51,777 nt of DNA from Escherichia phage FritzSarasin: sequence record MZ501069, one strand, 5' to 3'. This document shows positions 23,636 to 40,082 of this stretch, one piece after another (the first letter of the stretch is position 1; every line of letters begins with the position of its first letter). Under the pieces are notes generated by a model, which saw only the letters and a list, made by a program, of their open reading frames with translations, ran no database searches and had not been told where the DNA came from. The position numbers and the translations under genes were made by a program.

Positions 23636-24082
23636 ATGCACGTTATTACAGGTGAGATCCGAAAAGAGCCAAAAGTAAAGCAAATGCCTAACGGTAGCAC
23701 GCTATATGTTGTTGAGCTTTCCGAACGATATAAAGACCGTGAAGGCAATTGGCAGTATACAAACTATGTATTTTTCTTTAACGCGAAAACAGACGGCCTG
23801 AATGGTTGGTATGCTGAGGCGTTCCAGGTAGGCAAGGTTATTTCTGTTTCCTGCGATACCTTGCGAGTTGAAACGCGAGAATACAACGGAAAGATTTACA
23901 GCACCGTGCAGCCTGGCGGATTTGCAAACTTGCTATTTAGCCAGCGTGGGGAAAGCCAGCAACAATATCAGCAGCGCACTCAAGGTGGATGGGGGCAACC
24001 ACAACAGCAACAAATCCCTCAACAGCAACCACAGCAAAGCAATCAGCCGCCGATTGACTTTGATGACGATATACCTTTCTGA
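23636..24082 (+). CDS. ssb: single-stranded DNA-binding protein
   Basis: 148 aa; OB-fold-like N-terminus, Q/G/P-rich linker, acidic tail ending DFDDDIPF. Confidence 0.85.
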   Translation: MHVITGEIRKEPKVKQMPNGSTLYVVELSERYKDREGNWQYTNYVFFFNAKTDGLNGWYAEAFQVGKVISVSCDTLRVETREYNGKIYSTVQPGGFANLLFSQRGESQQQYQQRTQGGWGQPQQQQIPQQQPQQSNQPPIDFDDDIPF

Positions 24083-35239: not shown

Positions 35240-35635
35240 TCATGTGATATTGAATTTACGGCGCAGTGCTTCAAGATCTTGTCTATTAGCTTTTGCCTGG
35301 AACAATTCATCATCGCCCATCTCCCCTATTCTAGCCATATCCCTGATCCAGTCGTTGCGCATACCATCCAGGCTATACAATTCGAATCCGAAAGGCCGCT
35401 TTGACGATCCTTTGGACCAGTATTTACCGCAGACCCCATCTATATAGCCAGCCGTCATCATTCTTGCGCAAAATTCCTTAGATGCAAGGCTGGCGAACAT
35501 TCGCGGCGTAAGTCCGGCGGCCCGTGCGAGCCGCTCACATTCTCTATGATGATAGATAAATTTGGCTATGTGCTGCCTGTTAAACCAGTCGTATGACTCA
35601 CACCATTTATACAGATCAAGCAAAAACATAATCAT
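35240..35635 (-). CDS. hypothetical protein, coupled to upstream P-loop ATPase
   Basis: About 131 aa; start overlaps stop of the ATPase gene (ATGA); no recognisable motif. Confidence 0.5.
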   Translation of the reverse strand: MIMFLLDLYKWCESYDWFNRQHIAKFIYHHRECERLARAAGLTPRMFASLASKEFCARMMTAGYIDGVCGKYWSKGSSKRPFGFELYSLDGMRNDWIRDMARIGEMGDDELFQAKANRQDLEALRRKFNIT

Positions 35636-37212
35636 CCCAGCAGTATTGGATTGACAAAAATAACACCATTAATCACACAAACATAATTTCTTTCTTCCAG
35701 CATTGGCAGCAAGTGCCCTTCTATCCTCTTCATTACGCCAGCTTGACCAACGAAAGGTTTTACCTTTCTCGCTGATTCGTACAGGGCGCGAATATTCAGA
35801 ATCCCTTTATTAGCCTTGCCGTGTCTAGTGATCAATTCAATCAATTTGCCCATTTCAGCATCATCACCAGCATAACCAGAAGCATTGGCGGCGCTAATGT
35901 ATGTTTTGCTCAATTCCTGAAACATGATCAGCGCCTCTTGCATTGTTTCCACGTCGATCTCTTTCGACTTCTGCGGGTATCCAGCAGGATTAAACCAGTT
36001 GCGGATAACATGCAGGACGGAAGCAAGCCTGATCACCTGTTTATCCATTTTACCCAGCGCACCGCGTAACATTGTATGAGAATACTTTCCGCCGTCTGCA
36101 AGATGCGGTTCCATATCCTGGCGAGCAATGTTGAGCACTCGCATAGCTGAACGGCTTATTTTCAGCGATATATTTGATTCGCTCATGATGTTATGCACCA
36201 ATTGATAATATTGGGCCTTCAATTCAGGATCCACCGCCTCATAGGTAGAATCACCATTTTCATCAATGAATGAGCGACGGCCTAAGAATGATTCCTCACG
36301 GACCAACAAAAAGCGCTCACTCACACCGATACCGCGCGATCCAGCGTCCATGATTCCGCTTATCGTTTCATCCTGGGCTATAACGCTCATACATCCAAGT
36401 GCGCGAAAACTCATGTTATTGTCAGCATTAGCACGGGCAATTGATACGTGACCATTATCCCACGCCTTAAGCACTAGCTCGCTGTTAGTCTTCCTTTCGC
36501 TATTGGCATAGGTCAAGCCTAACAGGCTGTTAATACTTGTTGCTTCGTCAGATATTACGGCAAAGTTACCTTGCTTGTTGTTGATTTTCGCCAAGCCTTC
36601 TGGAGTGGTATCTGAAACAGGGAAAGTTATATCACACATCTTTTCCAGCTTCTCCTCCAGATCCTCTTTTTCCTGGTATAGAGATTCCATATCAGCGCCT
36701 GATCTTTCGCTTTTCATCTCCTTTGCAAGACCTGCCAACTTTGCCTGTATTTTCTTTCTTTCCTTGCGGCGTTGCTCGTTGATCTTCTCAACTTCCGCAA
36801 TCATCGGAGCAATAGCCATACTGTTGATCGCAGATTTACCAGTTGACGGCGGCTGGCTTGTAACTACGTAAAGCGCAGTCGGCTGATCGGTTCCGTGATA
36901 GTCAACTGTAAAGCGCCCAAGCATAGCGGCAGAAATGCAGCCGATAAAGTGCATGTAAGCCGATGATTCAGGGAATTGAACTGATCGCGCAATGCTGCGT
37001 GATAACTTGCCGACAACATCAATATCATTACCAAGAGAAATTACGGGGTAGCGATCGTGACCGCTATTTACATCCTTTACGTCGCCCCAAAAGCTGGACG
37101 ACTGGCGATAGCCGTTAGCCTGAATTGATACGCGAACTGGCGAAAGGTTCTGGCTTTCAGCCATAGCGATTATTTGCTGTGGAGTTAATTTGTTCGTTTC
37201 TAATGAAAACAT
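35632..37212 (-). CDS. P-loop NTPase of unknown function (DUF3987-like, unverified)
   Basis: 526 aa; Walker A-like PPSTGKS and Walker B-like AVISDEA; charged coiled-coil segment; long C-terminal domain with no recognisable motif. Confidence 0.6.
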   Translation of the reverse strand: MFSLETNKLTPQQIIAMAESQNLSPVRVSIQANGYRQSSSFWGDVKDVNSGHDRYPVISLGNDIDVVGKLSRSIARSVQFPESSAYMHFIGCISAAMLGRFTVDYHGTDQPTALYVVTSQPPSTGKSAINSMAIAPMIAEVEKINEQRRKERKKIQAKLAGLAKEMKSERSGADMESLYQEKEDLEEKLEKMCDITFPVSDTTPEGLAKINNKQGNFAVISDEATSINSLLGLTYANSERKTNSELVLKAWDNGHVSIARANADNNMSFRALGCMSVIAQDETISGIMDAGSRGIGVSERFLLVREESFLGRRSFIDENGDSTYEAVDPELKAQYYQLVHNIMSESNISLKISRSAMRVLNIARQDMEPHLADGGKYSHTMLRGALGKMDKQVIRLASVLHVIRNWFNPAGYPQKSKEIDVETMQEALIMFQELSKTYISAANASGYAGDDAEMGKLIELITRHGKANKGILNIRALYESARKVKPFVGQAGVMKRIEGHLLPMLEERNYVCVINGVIFVNPILLG

Positions 37213-37264: not shown

Positions 37265-37285
37265 GTTTTGTCAAAAAGTGCTATT
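37265..37285 (-). promoter_or_regulatory. conserved promoter-module motif, variant with TTGACA (leftward)
   Basis: Minus-strand reading AATAGCACTTTTTGACAAAAC, 22 nt, TAAAAT inside hairpin GGGCCG...CGGCCC; ATPase ATG 74 nt downstream. Confidence 0.55.
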
Positions 37286-37502
37286 TGATCCGCTCTATTG
37301 CAACCAGAAGTCGATCAGGCTGGCGGTCGCTGTAGCATTCTCCTGTAATCCCATCCTTAAACGTAAAGTAAAGCGCCTTATGATATGAAAAACCAATCAG
37401 CCAACCTACCGCCGTTTTTTTGATGGGCCTGACTATATCGCCAGGCTTGAAAGTCTTTGTGGTAGAATTCGTTACTTTGTAACGGTTTTCACTGTTTATC
37501 AC
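37281..37502 (-). CDS. hypothetical small protein (KxGD motif)
   Basis: 73 aa; contains FKPGDIV motif. Confidence 0.5.
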   Translation of the reverse strand: MINSENRYKVTNSTTKTFKPGDIVRPIKKTAVGWLIGFSYHKALYFTFKDGITGECYSDRQPDRLLVAIERIK

Positions 37503-37885
37503 AGATATTTGCCCTCAAACAGATAACAGCCGCCAGCAGAGAATCCGACCTCTTCACGGTACAGGTTCCAGCGGTCGCCGCACTCATCAAAAACATAACC
37601 CGCAACGCTTCCAAGCGGTCGCCCTTTCTCGATCTGGTATCGCTTGCCCTGCTTAAAGTGCTTTTTGCACGGCATGTTATGATCTACAAACGTGCAAAGA
37701 ACGGTTTTTGTGTTAATGGCGCGGTAATCATCTCGGTTTGCTGGAATCCAGCGACTACCCTTAACAAGCGTCTTAACTTGGAACTCTTCCACCTCGATCA
37801 CATCATCACTTCCTGCAATCTTCTGATAAACCGTTTTAAAACGGCCTTTCATCAATACGTTGGTTTCATTACAGATAACATTCAT
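37499..37885 (-). CDS. hypothetical protein
   Basis: 128 aa; driven by motif module at 37939-37959. Confidence 0.55.
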   Translation of the reverse strand: MNVICNETNVLMKGRFKTVYQKIAGSDDVIEVEEFQVKTLVKGSRWIPANRDDYRAINTKTVLCTFVDHNMPCKKHFKQGKRYQIEKGRPLGSVAGYVFDECGDRWNLYREEVGFSAGGCYLFEGKYL

Positions 37886-37938: not shown

Positions 37939-37959
37939 CTTTTAACAAAAAGTGCTATT
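37939..37959 (-). promoter_or_regulatory. conserved promoter-module motif copy (leftward)
   Basis: Minus-strand reading AATAGCACTTTTTGTTAAAAG + hairpin CCAGGTGTAAAAACCTGG + CATAAT. Confidence 0.6.
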
Positions 37960-38662
37960 TTGAGTTTGACTCAAAGACGGCGCGAGCAAATCCGCGCGGA
38001 GTGAGGGAGCGGATCATCTTTGTGCGCGATGACTTACCGCCAGTTTTGGCCCAGCCTGGATTATCTTTGTCTTCCTCTTTCGGCAGGATTAAAGCGCGCG
38101 GAGGAATAACAAAGCCGTTGCCAGTCCAGAGGCACGTTTTCTTAAAATAGCGATCCCGTGCCGGAATAATATCAGGGAAGTCGGGATGTTTATCATCTTC
38201 CGGCAGATAGCCAGCGTAATCGCACGGATGGAACGTATAATCAGGCTTTCGCCATAACGTTGACAACTTGCCAACCGGATTTTCGATCATGTAAGGAACA
38301 CCGAAATAATCAGCTATATCAGCCGCGATTCTGCAAGTGTCGGCGGCCTCATCCTGGAACGATGGATTCTCAAGGCGTTTTTTGGCCCAATGGCGAGATC
38401 CGCTATTTGCAAGGTCGGTGCATGGTGGGAAGGCCATAATAAAATCAGGATTGCCCCACTCATTATTGATTGCCTTAACATAAAAAGCATCATCAATCCA
38501 GACGTTAACGTATTCGATATTCTCATGCTGTATGCGCACTGACTGGTAATCACCGTGATCGCCGCCGTCAGCATTAAAGCAAATGCACTTATAGCCATTA
38601 TCAGCCCAATCTTTAACAGCTTTACCAGATCCATCAAATAGGGAGAATATTAAACCTTTATA
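37955..38662 (-). CDS. compact DNA (cytosine-5)-methyltransferase-like protein
   Basis: About 236 aa from ATG 38662 (MYKGLIFSLFDGSGK); motif I FSLFDGSG, PC motif AFPPCTD, ENV-like MIENPVG; shorter than typical C5 methyltransferases. Confidence 0.55.
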   Translation of the reverse strand, partial: YKGLIFSLFDGSGKAVKDWADNGYKCICFNADGGDHGDYQSVRIQHENIEYVNVWIDDAFYVKAINNEWGNPDFIMAFPPCTDLANSGSRHWAKKRLENPSFQDEAADTCRIAADIADYFGVPYMIENPVGKLSTLWRKPDYTFHPCDYAGYLPEDDKHPDFPDIIPARDRYFKKTCLWTGNGFVIPPRALILPKEEDKDNPGWAKTGGKSSRTKMIRSLTPRGFARAVFESNSK

Positions 38663-38675
38663 CATCGTAATTACC

Positions 38676-38900
38676 TCAAAACGGAAAACAGCGCGCACAA
38701 CCATGATCGAAATCGCATCCACAATCATTAACAATCATAGTGGGATCTGCAAATATTGCGCTTGATTCAAGATCCATATCCATATCACCTAAAGCCTCAT
38801 CAAGAGTCTTAATTTTATATGCCACTTCAAGCGCCGCCTCTTTATTTAGTCCGGCATCTTCTGCCATTTGAAGGCGCTCAAAAAAACCGTCCTGACTCAT
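38676..38900 (-). CDS. hypothetical acidic protein with C-terminal cysteine cluster
   Basis: 74 aa; about 16 acidic versus 5 basic residues; ends CGCDFDHGCARCFPF. Confidence 0.5.
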   Translation of the reverse strand: MSQDGFFERLQMAEDAGLNKEAALEVAYKIKTLDEALGDMDMDLESSAIFADPTMIVNDCGCDFDHGCARCFPF

Positions 38901-39013
38901 CGCATAACTCCCTTAATAACAGCCAAGATAATAGCCAGGCCAGCAGCAGTAACCAAAAATCCAACCGCGCCAATAATCGAATAAAAAAAGAAATCAATAG
39001 CTTTATCTATCAT
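38897..39013 (-). CDS. putative small membrane peptide (not in ORF track)
   Basis: 38-aa hydrophobic ORF MIDKAIDFFFYSIIGAVGFLVTAAGLAIILAVIKGVMR with RBS GAGGTGA; stop overlaps next ATG. Confidence 0.3.
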   Translation of the reverse strand: MIDKAIDFFFYSIIGAVGFLVTAAGLAIILAVIKGVMR

Positions 39014-39055
39014 TTTTCACCTCATTTAAAAGGCGGCAAAACGCCGCCAGATTAA

Positions 39056-39283
39056 TTAAAGAGCGCGCCAACTTTGAATATAGAAAGCGTTTTCTTCCAG
39101 TAATTCTTTTACCTGATCTTTATTGTATTTGCGCACCTTACCGCCTGGATGGATACCAATAAGATAGCCGCCTTTGCCCTCGGTGATAGTGATTTGGCTA
39201 ATTCCGCAGGACTTATCAAGTTTTACAGCCACGCGGTGATGAGCGTCAATAGTTGCCATAATGTTTAAAACTTTTGCTTTCAT
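39056..39283 (-). CDS. hypothetical protein
   Basis: 75 aa ORF in leftward operon. Confidence 0.5.
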   Translation of the reverse strand: MKAKVLNIMATIDAHHRVAVKLDKSCGISQITITEGKGGYLIGIHPGGKVRKYNKDQVKELLEENAFYIQSWRAL

Positions 39284-39604: not shown

Positions 39605-39885
39605 TATGCGATCCCAGTTACGTTAAAACTTACAGCCCTTGTTGCGCTAAATACATAAGCATCAACAGCGCCGCCAAATACACGAATTTTACCCTGGCCG
39701 TACTGCGCATTCATATTTCGCCAAACCGTTCTATTAGAGCAGAATGCGCTACCAGTCTTAATAAGCATATCCATCTCTTTTCTTAGATCGCGATAGTCAA
39801 GCCAGAATCTAAAGGCGCGCTGTTTAATTCGCGCCGCCTTGATTTTTTCTCTTGCGCTATTGAAATCATTCTTTTCGTATGCCAT
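39604..39885 (-). CDS. hypothetical protein
   Basis: 93 aa; start overlaps upstream stop. Confidence 0.5.
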   Translation of the reverse strand: MAYEKNDFNSAREKIKAARIKQRAFRFWLDYRDLRKEMDMLIKTGSAFCSNRTVWRNMNAQYGQGKIRVFGGAVDAYVFSATRAVSFNVTGIA

Positions 39886-40082
39886 TAAATGATCTCCATG
39901 TATGTTTCAAAGCCATTTAACTTGAACAGGCCGTTTTCACATTTGCGCACGTTCCAAGTTAGCCCTGAGTGGTACGCCTCCATATCATCAAGGTCAATGG
40001 TGATTTCAGCACCTTTCTTAAATAAACCTTTTTCGTGAGACTTGTCGCGCTTAACAACTTTAACATCAACCTGATTTTCCAT
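39885..40082 (-). CDS. hypothetical small protein (FKKGAE motif)
   Basis: 65 aa; internal repeat GLFKKGAE / GLFKLNGFE. Confidence 0.5.
   Translation of the reverse strand: MENQVDVKVVKRDKSHEKGLFKKGAEITIDLDDMEAYHSGLTWNVRKCENGLFKLNGFETYMEII

What the first reader, a model, noticed from the sequence alone, without database searches (positions are those of the whole stretch)
38676..39013. Small acidic protein with a C-terminal cysteine cluster, coupled to a hydrophobic micro-ORF
The 74-aa protein (38676-38900) has about 16 acidic and 5 basic residues and ends CGCDFDHGCARCFPF. Strongly acidic small phage proteins are often DNA mimics that inhibit restriction or other DNA-binding defence proteins. 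Directly upstream and overlapping its start is an unannotated 38-aa hydrophobic ORF (38897-39013) with a good RBS.
Basis: inference. Interest (0 to 1): 0.45.

Follow-up and report, generated by a model that had tools for sequence, protein, structure and literature searches.

The report
Acidic T1-phage protein with SSB-like tail
A small, very acidic protein conserved in T1-like phages is real and under strong selection; it looks less like a DNA mimic than like a floppy acidic arm ending in the kind of docking peptide that bacterial single-strand-binding protein uses to recruit partners. Its function is untested.

Summary
Both ORFs are present exactly as described, in a Warwickvirus (T1-like, Drexlerviridae) genome about 99% identical to phage tonijn.

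**The 74-aa gene is real.** pN/pS is 0.19 overall and 0.09 over the Cys-rich C-terminus. It belongs to an uncharacterised family that includes T1 gene ST6, with no Pfam, NCBIfam or PDB relative.

**Family hallmarks:**
- a three-helix N-terminal module (AGLN…ALGDMDMDxES);
- an acidic linker predicted to be disordered;
- an extreme C-terminal [I/F/L]-P-[F/W] tip, found in 181 of 185 distinct members.

The Cys4 cluster is only a subfamily insert.

**The tip resembles the SSB tail.** In this window and in T1, the phage SSB (…DFDDDIPF) is the only other ORF with this type of ending. My best model (confidence about 0.3) is an SSB-tail-type docking adaptor or competitor.

**Evidence against that model:** this clade's tip is RCFPF, and tips vary by clade while SSB tails do not.

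**The DNA-mimic anti-restriction reading is not supported.** There is no homology and no compact acidic fold, and Drexlerviridae are reported to be very RM-sensitive.

**A link to the downstream methylase is not obligate.**

**The 38-aa micro-ORF** is probably a real accessory membrane-peptide gene. Three sequence types occupy this spot in 13 of 58 loci. It is not functionally tied to the acidic protein.

The parts
38676..38900 (-). 74-aa acidic protein gene (net charge -11), phrog_9323; orthologue family of phage T1 ST6
   Evidence: ORF. PHROG hit at 3.5e-36. 97 close homologues. pN/pS 0.19. T1 ST6 identified.
38766..38885 (-). Residues 6-45: N-terminal three-helix module with the family signature AGLNxE..L.VA....TL.EALGDMDMDxES
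   Evidence: AF2 helices at residues 6-15, 20-27 and 33-38, block-mean pLDDT 66-78. Invariant columns. The same module is embedded in 160-310-aa proteins of other phages.
38724..38783 (-). Residues 40-59: acidic linker predicted to be disordered (MDMDLESSAIFADPTMIVND)
   Evidence: AF2 block-mean pLDDT 51-59 for residues 41-60. Highest pN/pS of the gene, 0.32 for residues 46-57. Length and sequence vary across the family.
38679..38723 (-). Residues 60-74: C-x-C-x5-C-x2-C cluster ending in the extreme C-terminal tip F-P-F (CGCDFDHGCARCFPF). Contains DFD and FPF, compared with DFDDDIPF in SSB
   Evidence: C60, C62, F64, D65, C68, R70, C71 and P73 are invariant in 34 sequences. pN/pS 0.089. The tip [ILVFMT]P[FW], with or without one extra residue, occurs in 181 of 185 distinct members; Cys4 occurs in 152 of 185.
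38897..39013 (-). 38-aa hydrophobic micro-ORF: probably a single-pass membrane peptide, and accessory
   Evidence: ORF. tblastn hits in 105 phage records. Alignment and 3n indels. Maximum hydropathy 2.5 over 19 residues. Three sequence types at this position in 13 of 58 loci.
39018..39023 (-). Shine-Dalgarno-like GAGGTG of the micro-ORF
   Evidence: Read directly.
38908..38914 (-). Shine-Dalgarno-like AAGGGAG of the 74-aa gene, lying inside the micro-ORF
   Evidence: Read directly.
39032..39048 (-). Terminator-like hairpin GGCGGCGTTTTGCCGCC followed by TTTT, between the upstream 75-aa gene and the micro-ORF
   Evidence: 7-bp stem with 6 G-C pairs. This is a consensus match only.
23636..24082 (+). 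Comparator, not part of the locus: the phage SSB, which ends PPIDFDDDIPF
   Evidence: It is the only other stop-to-stop ORF of at least 40 aa in the window that ends in [ILVFM]P[FW].

Best explanation
The 74-aa ORF encodes a real cytoplasmic protein that is a conserved, syntenic gene of T1-like phages (Drexlerviridae).

**Shown (from sequence comparison and AF2 prediction):**
- It consists of a small three-helix N-terminal module, an acidic linker predicted to be disordered, and a strongly constrained extreme C-terminus ending in Pro-Phe.
- In this clade a four-cysteine cluster sits directly in front of that ending.

**Inferred:**
- The protein works by protein-protein docking, not by mimicking DNA.
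- The acidic flexible arm presents a C-terminal peptide of the same type as the SSB C-terminal tip (acidic run plus I-P-F-COOH).
- That peptide inserts into a partner's tail-binding pocket while the N-terminal module holds or blocks something else.
- The protein would then act as an adaptor or a competitor in the network of proteins that read SSB-type tails during phage DNA replication and recombination.
- The Cys4 cluster probably binds zinc and stiffens the tip.
- Because the tip differs between phage clades while SSB tails do not, the partner is more likely a clade-specific phage or variable host protein than the whole invariant set of host SSB partners.

**The 38-aa micro-ORF** upstream is probably a separate accessory membrane-peptide gene inserted at a hot spot. 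It is not a functional subunit of the acidic protein.
For: **The gene is real and strongly constrained.**
- pN/pS is 0.19 overall and 0.089 over residues 58-74. The alternative frames give values above 1.8.

**Architecture.**
- AF2 predicts helices at 6-15, 20-27 and 33-38.
- Block-mean pLDDT is 51-59 for residues 41-60 and 74 for residues 61-70.

**Family-wide tip.**
- Of 185 distinct short members, 168 end exactly in [ILVFMT]P[FW] and 13 more carry one extra residue.
- 33 members lack Cys4 and still keep the tip. Examples are T1 ST6 …DVDDYIPW, …KFDDGIPF, …FDFDQLPF and …DFDNNHLPF.
- Median net charge is -10.

**Resemblance to SSB-Ct.**
- The window SSB ends DFDDDIPF.
- Among 601 stop-to-stop ORFs of at least 40 aa in the window, only the SSB and this protein end in [ILVFM]P[FW]; 0.53 would be expected by composition.
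- The same is true in the diverged T1 genome, for SSB and ST6 among 540 ORFs.
- The window protein also carries DFD (residues 63-65) upstream of FPF. This echoes the proximal DFDD and distal DIPF halves of SSB-Ct as defined in PMC10143822.
- IPF is required for SSB function and is the part seen bound in ExoI and RecO crystals (PMC10143822; PMC5872125).

**Genomic context.**
- The gene always lies in the block p75 -> acidic protein -> (methylase) -> p128 -> DUF3987 helicase.
Against: - No binding or phenotype data exist. The resemblance rests on a 3-8-residue motif.
- In this window's clade the tip is A/K-R-C-F-P-F. It has Phe where SSB has Ile, and Arg-Cys where SSB has Asp-Asp.
- Thirteen members carry an extra residue after Phe (IPFW, VPFL). 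That would bury the alpha-carboxylate that SSB partners are known to read.
- SSB tails are invariant (FDDDIPF in 58 of 63 Drexlerviridae loci), whereas the acidic protein's tip changes by clade, with no covariation. This argues against a simple decoy for conserved host pockets.
- The 175-185-aa Ackermannviridae relatives keep the N-terminal module but have no such tip. The module may therefore be the primary functional unit.
- The neighbouring gene p128 is dispensable in the lab: a frameshift in it lets phage SECphi27 escape the Mokosh defence system. The block is therefore not purely an essential replication module.
- AF2 confidence for this protein is only moderate (mean pLDDT 67).
Confidence: 0.3

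Rival explanations
1. DNA or nucleic-acid mimic that inhibits restriction or another DNA-binding defence protein. One variant: an Arn-like inhibitor of type IV restriction that protects DNA modified by the phage's own cytosine methylase.
For: - Net charge is -11 in 74 aa.
- The gene lies in an early region rich in small host-interaction genes. A Gp54-family gene is at 39885-40082, and the Mokosh type I trigger orthologue p128 is two genes downstream.
- A C5-methylase-like gene is immediately downstream, and its Shine-Dalgarno sequence overlaps the stop codon of the acidic gene.
Against: - No homology to any known family.
- The acidic stretch is predicted to be disordered rather than forming a rigid array.
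- The constrained features are the helices and the C-terminal Pro-aromatic tip.
- The gene is kept in T1-type phages and others with no adjacent methylase.
- Most Drexlerviridae are reported to be very sensitive to RM systems, including type I (PMC8594841).
Confidence: 0.12
2. Partner or regulator of the downstream 236-aa C5-methyltransferase-like enzyme. For example, a zinc-knuckle subunit that times, targets or restrains methylation.
For: - The gene is immediately upstream of the methylase-like gene, with 10 nt between them and the methylase Shine-Dalgarno sequence overlapping the acidic gene's stop codon.
- This adjacency holds in most clades.
- The enzyme is short and so divergent that Pfam and NCBIfam miss it. 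It could plausibly need a helper.
Against: - The acidic gene persists without an adjacent methylase in the T1 clade, L060, L149 and L011.
- Cys4 presence and methylase presence are not linked. L011 has Cys4 and no methylase. L059, L150 and L151 have a methylase and no Cys4.
- Adjacency in a densely packed phage operon is weak evidence.
Confidence: 0.12
3. The N-terminal AGLN…ALGDMDMD module is the active part and binds a host hub of unknown identity for host takeover. The C-terminal tip would then be a stability or turnover signal, or a clade-specific add-on unrelated to SSB-type docking.
For: - The module alone is conserved in larger proteins of Ackermannviridae and other phages that lack the tip.
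- ALGxMD is the most invariant stretch of the whole family.
- Tips diverge between clades.
Against: - The tip is the most strongly constrained segment within the clade, with pN/pS 0.089.
- It is present in 181 of 185 short members across very divergent clades. That is hard to square with an optional add-on.
Confidence: 0.2
4. Precursor of a ribosomally made, modified peptide: a helical leader plus a Cys-rich core, modified by the neighbouring methyltransferase-like enzyme.
For: Small size, a conserved N-terminal helical part, a Cys-rich C-terminus and an adjacent enzyme gene.
Against: - No cyclase, radical-SAM enzyme, protease or exporter is nearby.
- Cys-less members and methylase-less loci exist.
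- The neighbouring enzyme carries the motif pattern of C5 DNA methylases (FDGSG, PPC, ENP).
Confidence: 0.02

Closest known systems
C-terminal tip of bacterial and phage SSB (SSB-Ct, DFDDDIPF), the docking peptide for ExoI, RecQ, PriA, RecO, DnaG, Pol III chi and others
   Same: - An acidic flexible segment that ends at the very C-terminus in hydrophobic-Pro-aromatic.
- Pro and the terminal aromatic are nearly invariant.
- Cys-less relatives read DDDDYIPW, KFDDGIPF and FDFDQLPF.
- The window protein carries DFD…FPF.
   Different: - The protein has no OB fold and is not an SSB.
- This clade's tip is RCFPF, with a Cys4 cluster inserted before it.
- Some relatives end IPFW.
- The tip varies by clade, whereas real SSB tails in the same phages are invariant.
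- Binding is untested.
Acidic C-terminal tails of phage T7 gp2.5 (SSB) and gp4 (helicase-primase), both ending in Phe and docking on T7 DNA polymerase (recalled from the literature, not tested here)
   Same: A precedent for a phage giving an SSB-type acidic, aromatic-terminated tail to a protein that is not the SSB, so that the two share or compete for one docking site.
   Different: - T7 gp4 is a large enzyme with the tail appended. Here the tail-bearing protein is only 74 aa.
- T1-like phages show no DNA polymerase gene in the tonijn annotation.
DNA-mimic anti-restriction proteins (T7 Ocr, ArdA, T4 Arn)
   Same: Small, strongly acidic, phage-encoded and expressed from an early region.
   Different: - No sequence or profile similarity.
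- No predicted rigid fold displaying carboxylates.
- The conserved features are helices and a terminal peptide.
- The host phage family is reported to be RM-sensitive.
Phage T1 ST6 (YP_003939.1) / PHROG families 9323, 9085 and 4823
   Same: True homologues, with the same N-terminal module, the same position after the p75 homologue (T1 ST5) and before the p128 homologue and the helicase, and the same type of tip.
   Different: - All are annotated only as hypothetical, or wrongly as 'putative cytosine DNA methylase'.
- T1 ST6 lacks the Cys4 cluster and ends DVDDYIPW.

Membership tests
SSB-Ct-type C-terminal docking tail | The motif sits at the extreme C-terminus with a free carboxylate on the aromatic residue | tested here: met
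   The window protein ends …CFPF followed by the stop codon. 168 of 185 members end exactly in x-P-[FW]; 13 have one extra residue.
SSB-Ct-type C-terminal docking tail | Ile/Leu-Pro-Phe tripeptide (IPF is required for SSB function; PMC10143822) | tested here: inconclusive
   Pro-Phe is present and nearly invariant. The third-last residue is Phe in this clade, and Ile in most other clades.
SSB-Ct-type C-terminal docking tail | A run of Asp immediately before IPF (DFDD + DIPF) | tested here: not met
   The window has A-R-C before FPF, and DFD lies 7-9 residues upstream of the tip. The feature is met in T1-type relatives (DDDDYIPW). D/E at position -4 is present in most non-Tempevirinae members.
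SSB-Ct-type C-terminal docking tail | The tip is carried on an intrinsically disordered linker | tested here: inconclusive
   AF2 block-mean pLDDT is 51-59 for residues 41-60, and the linker varies in length and sequence. This is a prediction only.
SSB-Ct-type C-terminal docking tail | Binds the hydrophobic pocket and basic ridge of SSB-interacting proteins | not testable with these tools
   No complex prediction or binding assay was available. An alignment built around a fusion of p75 and the 74-aa protein, intended for complex prediction, misaligned and was dropped.
SSB protein family | OB-fold ssDNA-binding domain | tested here: not met
   The AF2 model is all-helical plus coil. There is no Pfam SSB hit. 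The adjacent p75 is not an OB fold either.
DNA-mimic anti-restriction proteins (Ocr / ArdA / Arn) | Sequence or profile homology to a known mimic family | tested here: not met
   No Pfam, NCBIfam or PDB sequence match at E<=1, apart from two insignificant PDB hits at E 0.2 and 1. PHROG hits are only to families of unknown function.
DNA-mimic anti-restriction proteins (Ocr / ArdA / Arn) | Compact fold displaying a DNA-like array of carboxylates | tested here: not met
   AF2 gives three short helices and a low-confidence acidic segment. Foldseek finds no PDB match with E<=0.001.
DNA-mimic anti-restriction proteins (Ocr / ArdA / Arn) | Confers resistance to restriction | not tested
   Indirect evidence only: most Drexlerviridae, which carry this core gene, are very RM-sensitive (PMC8594841).
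Cys4 zinc knuckle | Four conserved Cys in two close pairs | tested here: met
   C60, C62, C68 and C71 are invariant in 34 sequences. The C-x-C-x(4-6)-C-x2-C pattern occurs in 152 of 185 members.
Cys4 zinc knuckle | Binds a metal ion | not testable with these tools
   Needs metal analysis of purified protein.
Small single-pass membrane proteins (micro-ORF) | One hydrophobic helix of about 20 residues with flanking charges, and a conserved open frame | tested here: met
   Hydropathy reaches 2.5 over 19 residues. The frame is open in two genera, with 3n indels. tblastn finds it in 105 records. Translation itself was not tested.

The most novel reading that the evidence does not exclude
T1-like phages encode a dedicated 'tail-only' protein. 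It would be a small helical handle carrying a free-standing SSB-type C-terminal docking peptide, zinc-stiffened in this clade. The phage would use it to plug, or to recruit, proteins that normally read the SSB tail. That would rewire the replication, repair or defence machinery organised around SSB without the protein binding DNA at all. This would be the first described non-SSB viral mimic of the SSB C-terminal tip.
Probability: 0.2. Interest if true: 0.7.

Novelty: new variant of a known kind. Interest (0 to 1): 0.42.

Why it matters
The SSB C-terminal tip is the central hub through which more than a dozen bacterial replication, recombination and repair enzymes are recruited, and it is a drug target. 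A phage protein that carries only the tip on a small handle would be a natural inhibitor or adaptor of that hub. It would give a function to a core gene of the T1 phage family that has had none, including T1 gene ST6, sequenced in 2004. It would also offer a simple peptide-level handle for experiments. Even if the SSB analogy fails, the family has three clear modules and a very strongly constrained terminal peptide, so the partner should be straightforward to find. The work also corrects database annotation: the protein is not a cytosine methylase, and the extended methylase ORF that overlaps it is not supported.

Tried and rejected
1. **Known-family searches.**
   - Pfam, NCBIfam and PDB sequence searches gave no significant hit; PHROGs matched only families of unknown function.
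   - Foldseek against the PDB found nothing, and BFVD returned only the protein's own uncharacterised family.
   - Rfam found nothing in the whole window.

2. **Extended methylase ORF** (TTG at 38734, annotated in some GenBank records, overlapping the Cys-rich end). Rejected: that frame has pN/pS above 1.8 and is interrupted by stop codons in relatives.

3. **'Split SSB' idea** (p75 as the DNA-binding half, the acidic protein as the tail). Dropped.
   - p75 folds confidently (pLDDT 90) into an alpha/beta sandwich.

4. **Cys4 cluster tied to the methylase.** Rejected by counter-examples in both directions.

5. **Covariation between the phage SSB tail and the acidic protein's tip.** None found: SSB tails are invariant. 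This counts against a simple host-pocket decoy.

6. **dN/dS as proof that the micro-ORF is coding.** Not discriminating, at 0.56-0.65 in all three frames.

7. **Complex prediction from a fused p75-linker-74-aa sequence.** The alignment placed the p75 homologues wrongly, and the tool reports no contacts, so I abandoned it.

8. **Literature searches** for SSB-tail mimics in phages, for the motif strings, and for Drexlerviridae anti-defence genes. No report on this protein was found.

9. **RiPP-precursor idea.** No supporting genes nearby.

Full report
**What the window is.** The region is about 99% identical to Escherichia phage tonijn (Warwickvirus, Tempevirinae, Drexlerviridae), a T1-like virulent siphovirus. 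It is also 98.6% identical to the laboratory phage SECphi27.

**Gene order on the minus strand**:
- 75-aa gene 'p75' (39056-39283, phrog_4344)
- terminator-like hairpin (39032-39048)
- 38-aa micro-ORF (38897-39013)
- 74-aa acidic gene (38676-38900, phrog_9323)
- 236-aa C5-methyltransferase-like gene (37955-38665, phrog_757)
- 128-aa gene 'p128' (37499-37885, phrog_2684)
- 73-aa gene (37281-37502)
- DUF3987 helicase (35632-37212)

**Observation check.** Both ORFs exist at the stated coordinates with the stated sequences.
- The 74-aa protein has 16 acidic and 5 basic residues and four cysteines.
- The ORFs overlap by ATGA, and each has its own purine-rich Shine-Dalgarno sequence.
- The micro-ORF is unannotated in the tonijn RefSeq record. 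It is annotated in JLBYU26 (fancifully, as a 'translocation/assembly module'), in MikeNSara and in grams.

**Is the 74-aa ORF a gene?** Yes.
- A word-indexed search found 97 proteins, all at least 66% identical.
- An exhaustive profile search of 1.84 billion representatives found 30 more distant relatives.
- Across 25 distinct 74-codon orthologues, pN/pS is 0.19. It is lowest (0.089, with pS 0.89) in the last 17 codons, which encode the cysteine cluster and the terminus. The other two frames over that stretch give 2.4 and 1.8.
- Some GenBank records extend the methylase ORF upstream from a TTG so that it overlaps these codons. That frame is interrupted by stop codons in several relatives, so it is not supported.

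**Anatomy of the family.** Alignments show three parts.

1. *N-terminal module.* It carries the signature AGLNxE(W/A)ALKVAxxxx(T/S)LxEALGDMDMDxES. AF2 models it as three short helices at residues 6-15, 20-27 and 33-38, with block-mean pLDDT of 66-78.

2. *Acidic linker.* It varies in length and sequence, has block-mean pLDDT of 51-59, and has the highest pN/pS of the gene.

3. *Extreme C-terminus.*
   - Among 185 distinct short members, 168 end exactly in [ILVFMT]-P-[FW] and 13 end in that motif plus one residue. Only four deviate, each by a single substitution.
   - Cys-less examples include phage T1 gene ST6 (…DDINEDVDDYIPW), …KFDDGIPF, …FDFDQLPF and …DFDNNHLPF.

The cysteine cluster is therefore a subfamily insert, plausibly a zinc knuckle. 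The Pro-aromatic tip is the family hallmark. Larger proteins of Ackermannviridae-sized phages (175-185 aa, phrog_4823) and two 217-309-aa proteins contain the N-terminal module and the DMDMD patch but not the tip.

**The resemblance I followed.** An acidic, flexible segment ending in I-P-F-COOH is the definition of the SSB C-terminal tip.
- The octapeptide is DFDD + DIPF. IPF is required for function and is the part seen bound in ExoI and RecO crystals (PMC10143822).
- DDDIPF engages many essential partners (PMC5872125).
- The phage's own SSB (23636-24082, + strand) ends PPIDFDDDIPF.
- Of 601 stop-to-stop ORFs of at least 40 aa in the window, only two end in [ILVFM]P[FW]: the SSB and the 74-aa protein. 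Composition predicts 0.53 across all frames.
- In the diverged T1 genome, the same two genes, SSB (ST27) and ST6, are the only ones among 540 ORFs.
- The window protein also carries DFD at residues 63-65, with F64 and D65 invariant in its clade, upstream of FPF.

**Tests that cut against a simple reading.**
- I paired SSB tails with acidic-protein tips from the same contigs. SSB ends FDDDIPF (twice FDADIPF) in 58 of 63 Drexlerviridae loci. The acidic protein's tip, by contrast, is clade-specific: RCFPF, DDYIPW, ECIPFW or ECMPF. There is no covariation.
- In this window's clade the residues before the tip are Arg-Cys rather than Asp-Asp, and Phe replaces Ile.
- A decoy for the invariant host pockets would be expected to copy the invariant tail.
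- I therefore keep 'SSB-tail-type docking peptide' as the mechanism class, but consider a clade-specific partner, either phage-encoded or a variable host protein, more likely than the whole host SSB interactome.
- Confidence is about 0.3.

**Context.** The block p75 -> acidic protein -> (methylase) -> p128-like -> DUF3987 helicase is conserved across Drexlerviridae.

The methylase is optional.
- It is absent from that position in the T1 clade, L060, L149 and L011.
- Cys4 presence does not track methylase presence. L011 has Cys4 and no methylase. L059, L150 and L151 have a methylase and no Cys4.

This weakens the methylase-partner rival.

The methylase-like protein itself is very divergent.
- It has no Pfam or NCBIfam hit.
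- Its best PDB match is the DNMT3B catalytic domain, motifs I-IV, at E = 0.6.
- It does carry FDGSG, PPC and ENP motifs.

p75 folds confidently into an alpha/beta sandwich.
- AF2 gives pLDDT 90.
- It is not an OB fold, so a 'split SSB' idea was dropped.

**The DNA-mimic idea.**
- There is no homology to any known family.
- There is no predicted compact acidic surface.
- Selection is focused on the helices and the terminal peptide rather than on charge.
[quoted passage not shown] It found no genomic feature that explains the exceptions (PMC8594841).
- Since this gene is present across the family, an Ocr-like role is unlikely, though it has not been tested.

**The micro-ORF.**
- tblastn finds it in 105 phage records, all from T1-like phages of the Warwickvirus and Hanrivervirus type except one weak Bacillus phage hit (E = 5), at 49-100% identity.
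- The frame stays open, length differences are whole codons, the ATGA overlap with the next gene is kept, and the product is a single hydrophobic helix with charged ends.
- pN/pS (0.56-0.65) does not separate the coding frame from the others, as can happen for short membrane helices.
- Two other, apparently unrelated transmembrane micro-ORFs occupy exactly the same slot in other clades (L029-31, L034 and L036; and L052). In all, 13 of 58 loci have one.
- I read this as a hot spot for small accessory membrane-peptide genes. It is probably translated (about 0.65), and it is physically but not functionally coupled to the acidic protein.

**Novelty and verdict.**
- No paper in the searchable library describes this protein, its motifs, or any non-SSB phage protein that imitates the SSB tip.
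- Its database names, 'hypothetical' or 'putative cytosine DNA methylase', are uninformative or wrong.
- The object is real, conserved and uncharacterised.
- The alternative I propose rests on a short motif, on its family-wide conservation, and on a replicated coincidence with the SSB tail. One of my own tests limits it.
- Interest is moderate, and the hypothesis is cheap to test at the peptide level.

Noticed in passing
window 37499-37885 (-): The 128-aa gene two genes downstream of the finding is the orthologue of the SECphi27 'protein of unknown function (128aa)'. Expression of that protein triggers the Mokosh type I defence system, and a frameshift in it (E7fs) lets the phage escape. The supplementary table of bioRxiv 10.1101/2022.08.27.505566 gives its start as atgaatgttatctgtaatgaaaccaacgta, which translates to MNVICNETNV and is identical to the window ORF.
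   Followed up: partly
window 39885-40082 (-): This 65-aa ORF is a full-length member of Pfam PF25180, 'Phage antiviral trigger protein Gp54' (E = 1.7e-38). That is the family of the Bas11 protein that directly activates CapRel-SJ46 (PMC11578894).
   Followed up: partly
window 37955-38665 (-): The 'DNA methyltransferase' is only 236 aa and has no Pfam or NCBIfam hit. Its best PDB match is the DNMT3B catalytic domain at E = 0.6, although it does carry FDGSG, PPC and ENP motifs. It seems to lack a normal target-recognition domain. Some GenBank records extend it by 23 codons into the 74-aa gene, which comparative data do not support.
   Followed up: partly
[not shown]
   Followed up: partly
window 39032-39048 (-): A strong terminator-like hairpin (GGCGGCGTTTTGCCGCC followed by TTTT) sits between p75 and the micro-ORF. 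No recognisable sigma-70 promoter follows it. This suggests attenuation or read-through control inside the operon.
   Followed up: no
window 23636-24082 (+); loci L086-L148: The SSB proteins of T1-like phages keep a C-terminal tail identical to that of the host E. coli SSB (FDDDIPF) in 58 of 63 loci. This fits with no DNA polymerase gene being listed in the tonijn annotation, so these phages presumably need to plug into host replication proteins.
   Followed up: partly
phage records MG065640, MG065641, MG065657, MG065665, MG065667, MG065685, MG065687 (hits H42-H44, H94-H97, H101-H102): Twenty GenBank records named 'Campylobacter phage', with host given as C. jejuni, are T1-like coliphage-type genomes that carry this locus at 78-79% identity. 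The records may be mislabelled, or may derive from contaminating Drexlerviridae.
   Followed up: no
L006 / L051 / L146 (Shigella phage 2019SD1, NC_049820): In this record the acidic gene is truncated after 46 codons, the methylase is split into two CDS, and the SSB loses its IPF tail. Frame errors in three genes suggest sequencing or assembly errors rather than biology.
   Followed up: no
L005 (Escherichia phage PGN590, NC_049830) 1513-1958: RefSeq annotates two antisense ORFs (gp12, gp13) over the micro-ORF and acidic-gene region instead of the sense genes. The pN/pS analysis supports the sense frame.
   Followed up: no
L074 3800-4252 (-), Ackermannviridae-type contig: Near the 175-aa relative of the acidic protein lies a 150-aa, extremely acidic ORF ending …AEVDDDDDFWE. 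This is another acidic tail with aromatic residues next to the C-terminus.
   Followed up: no
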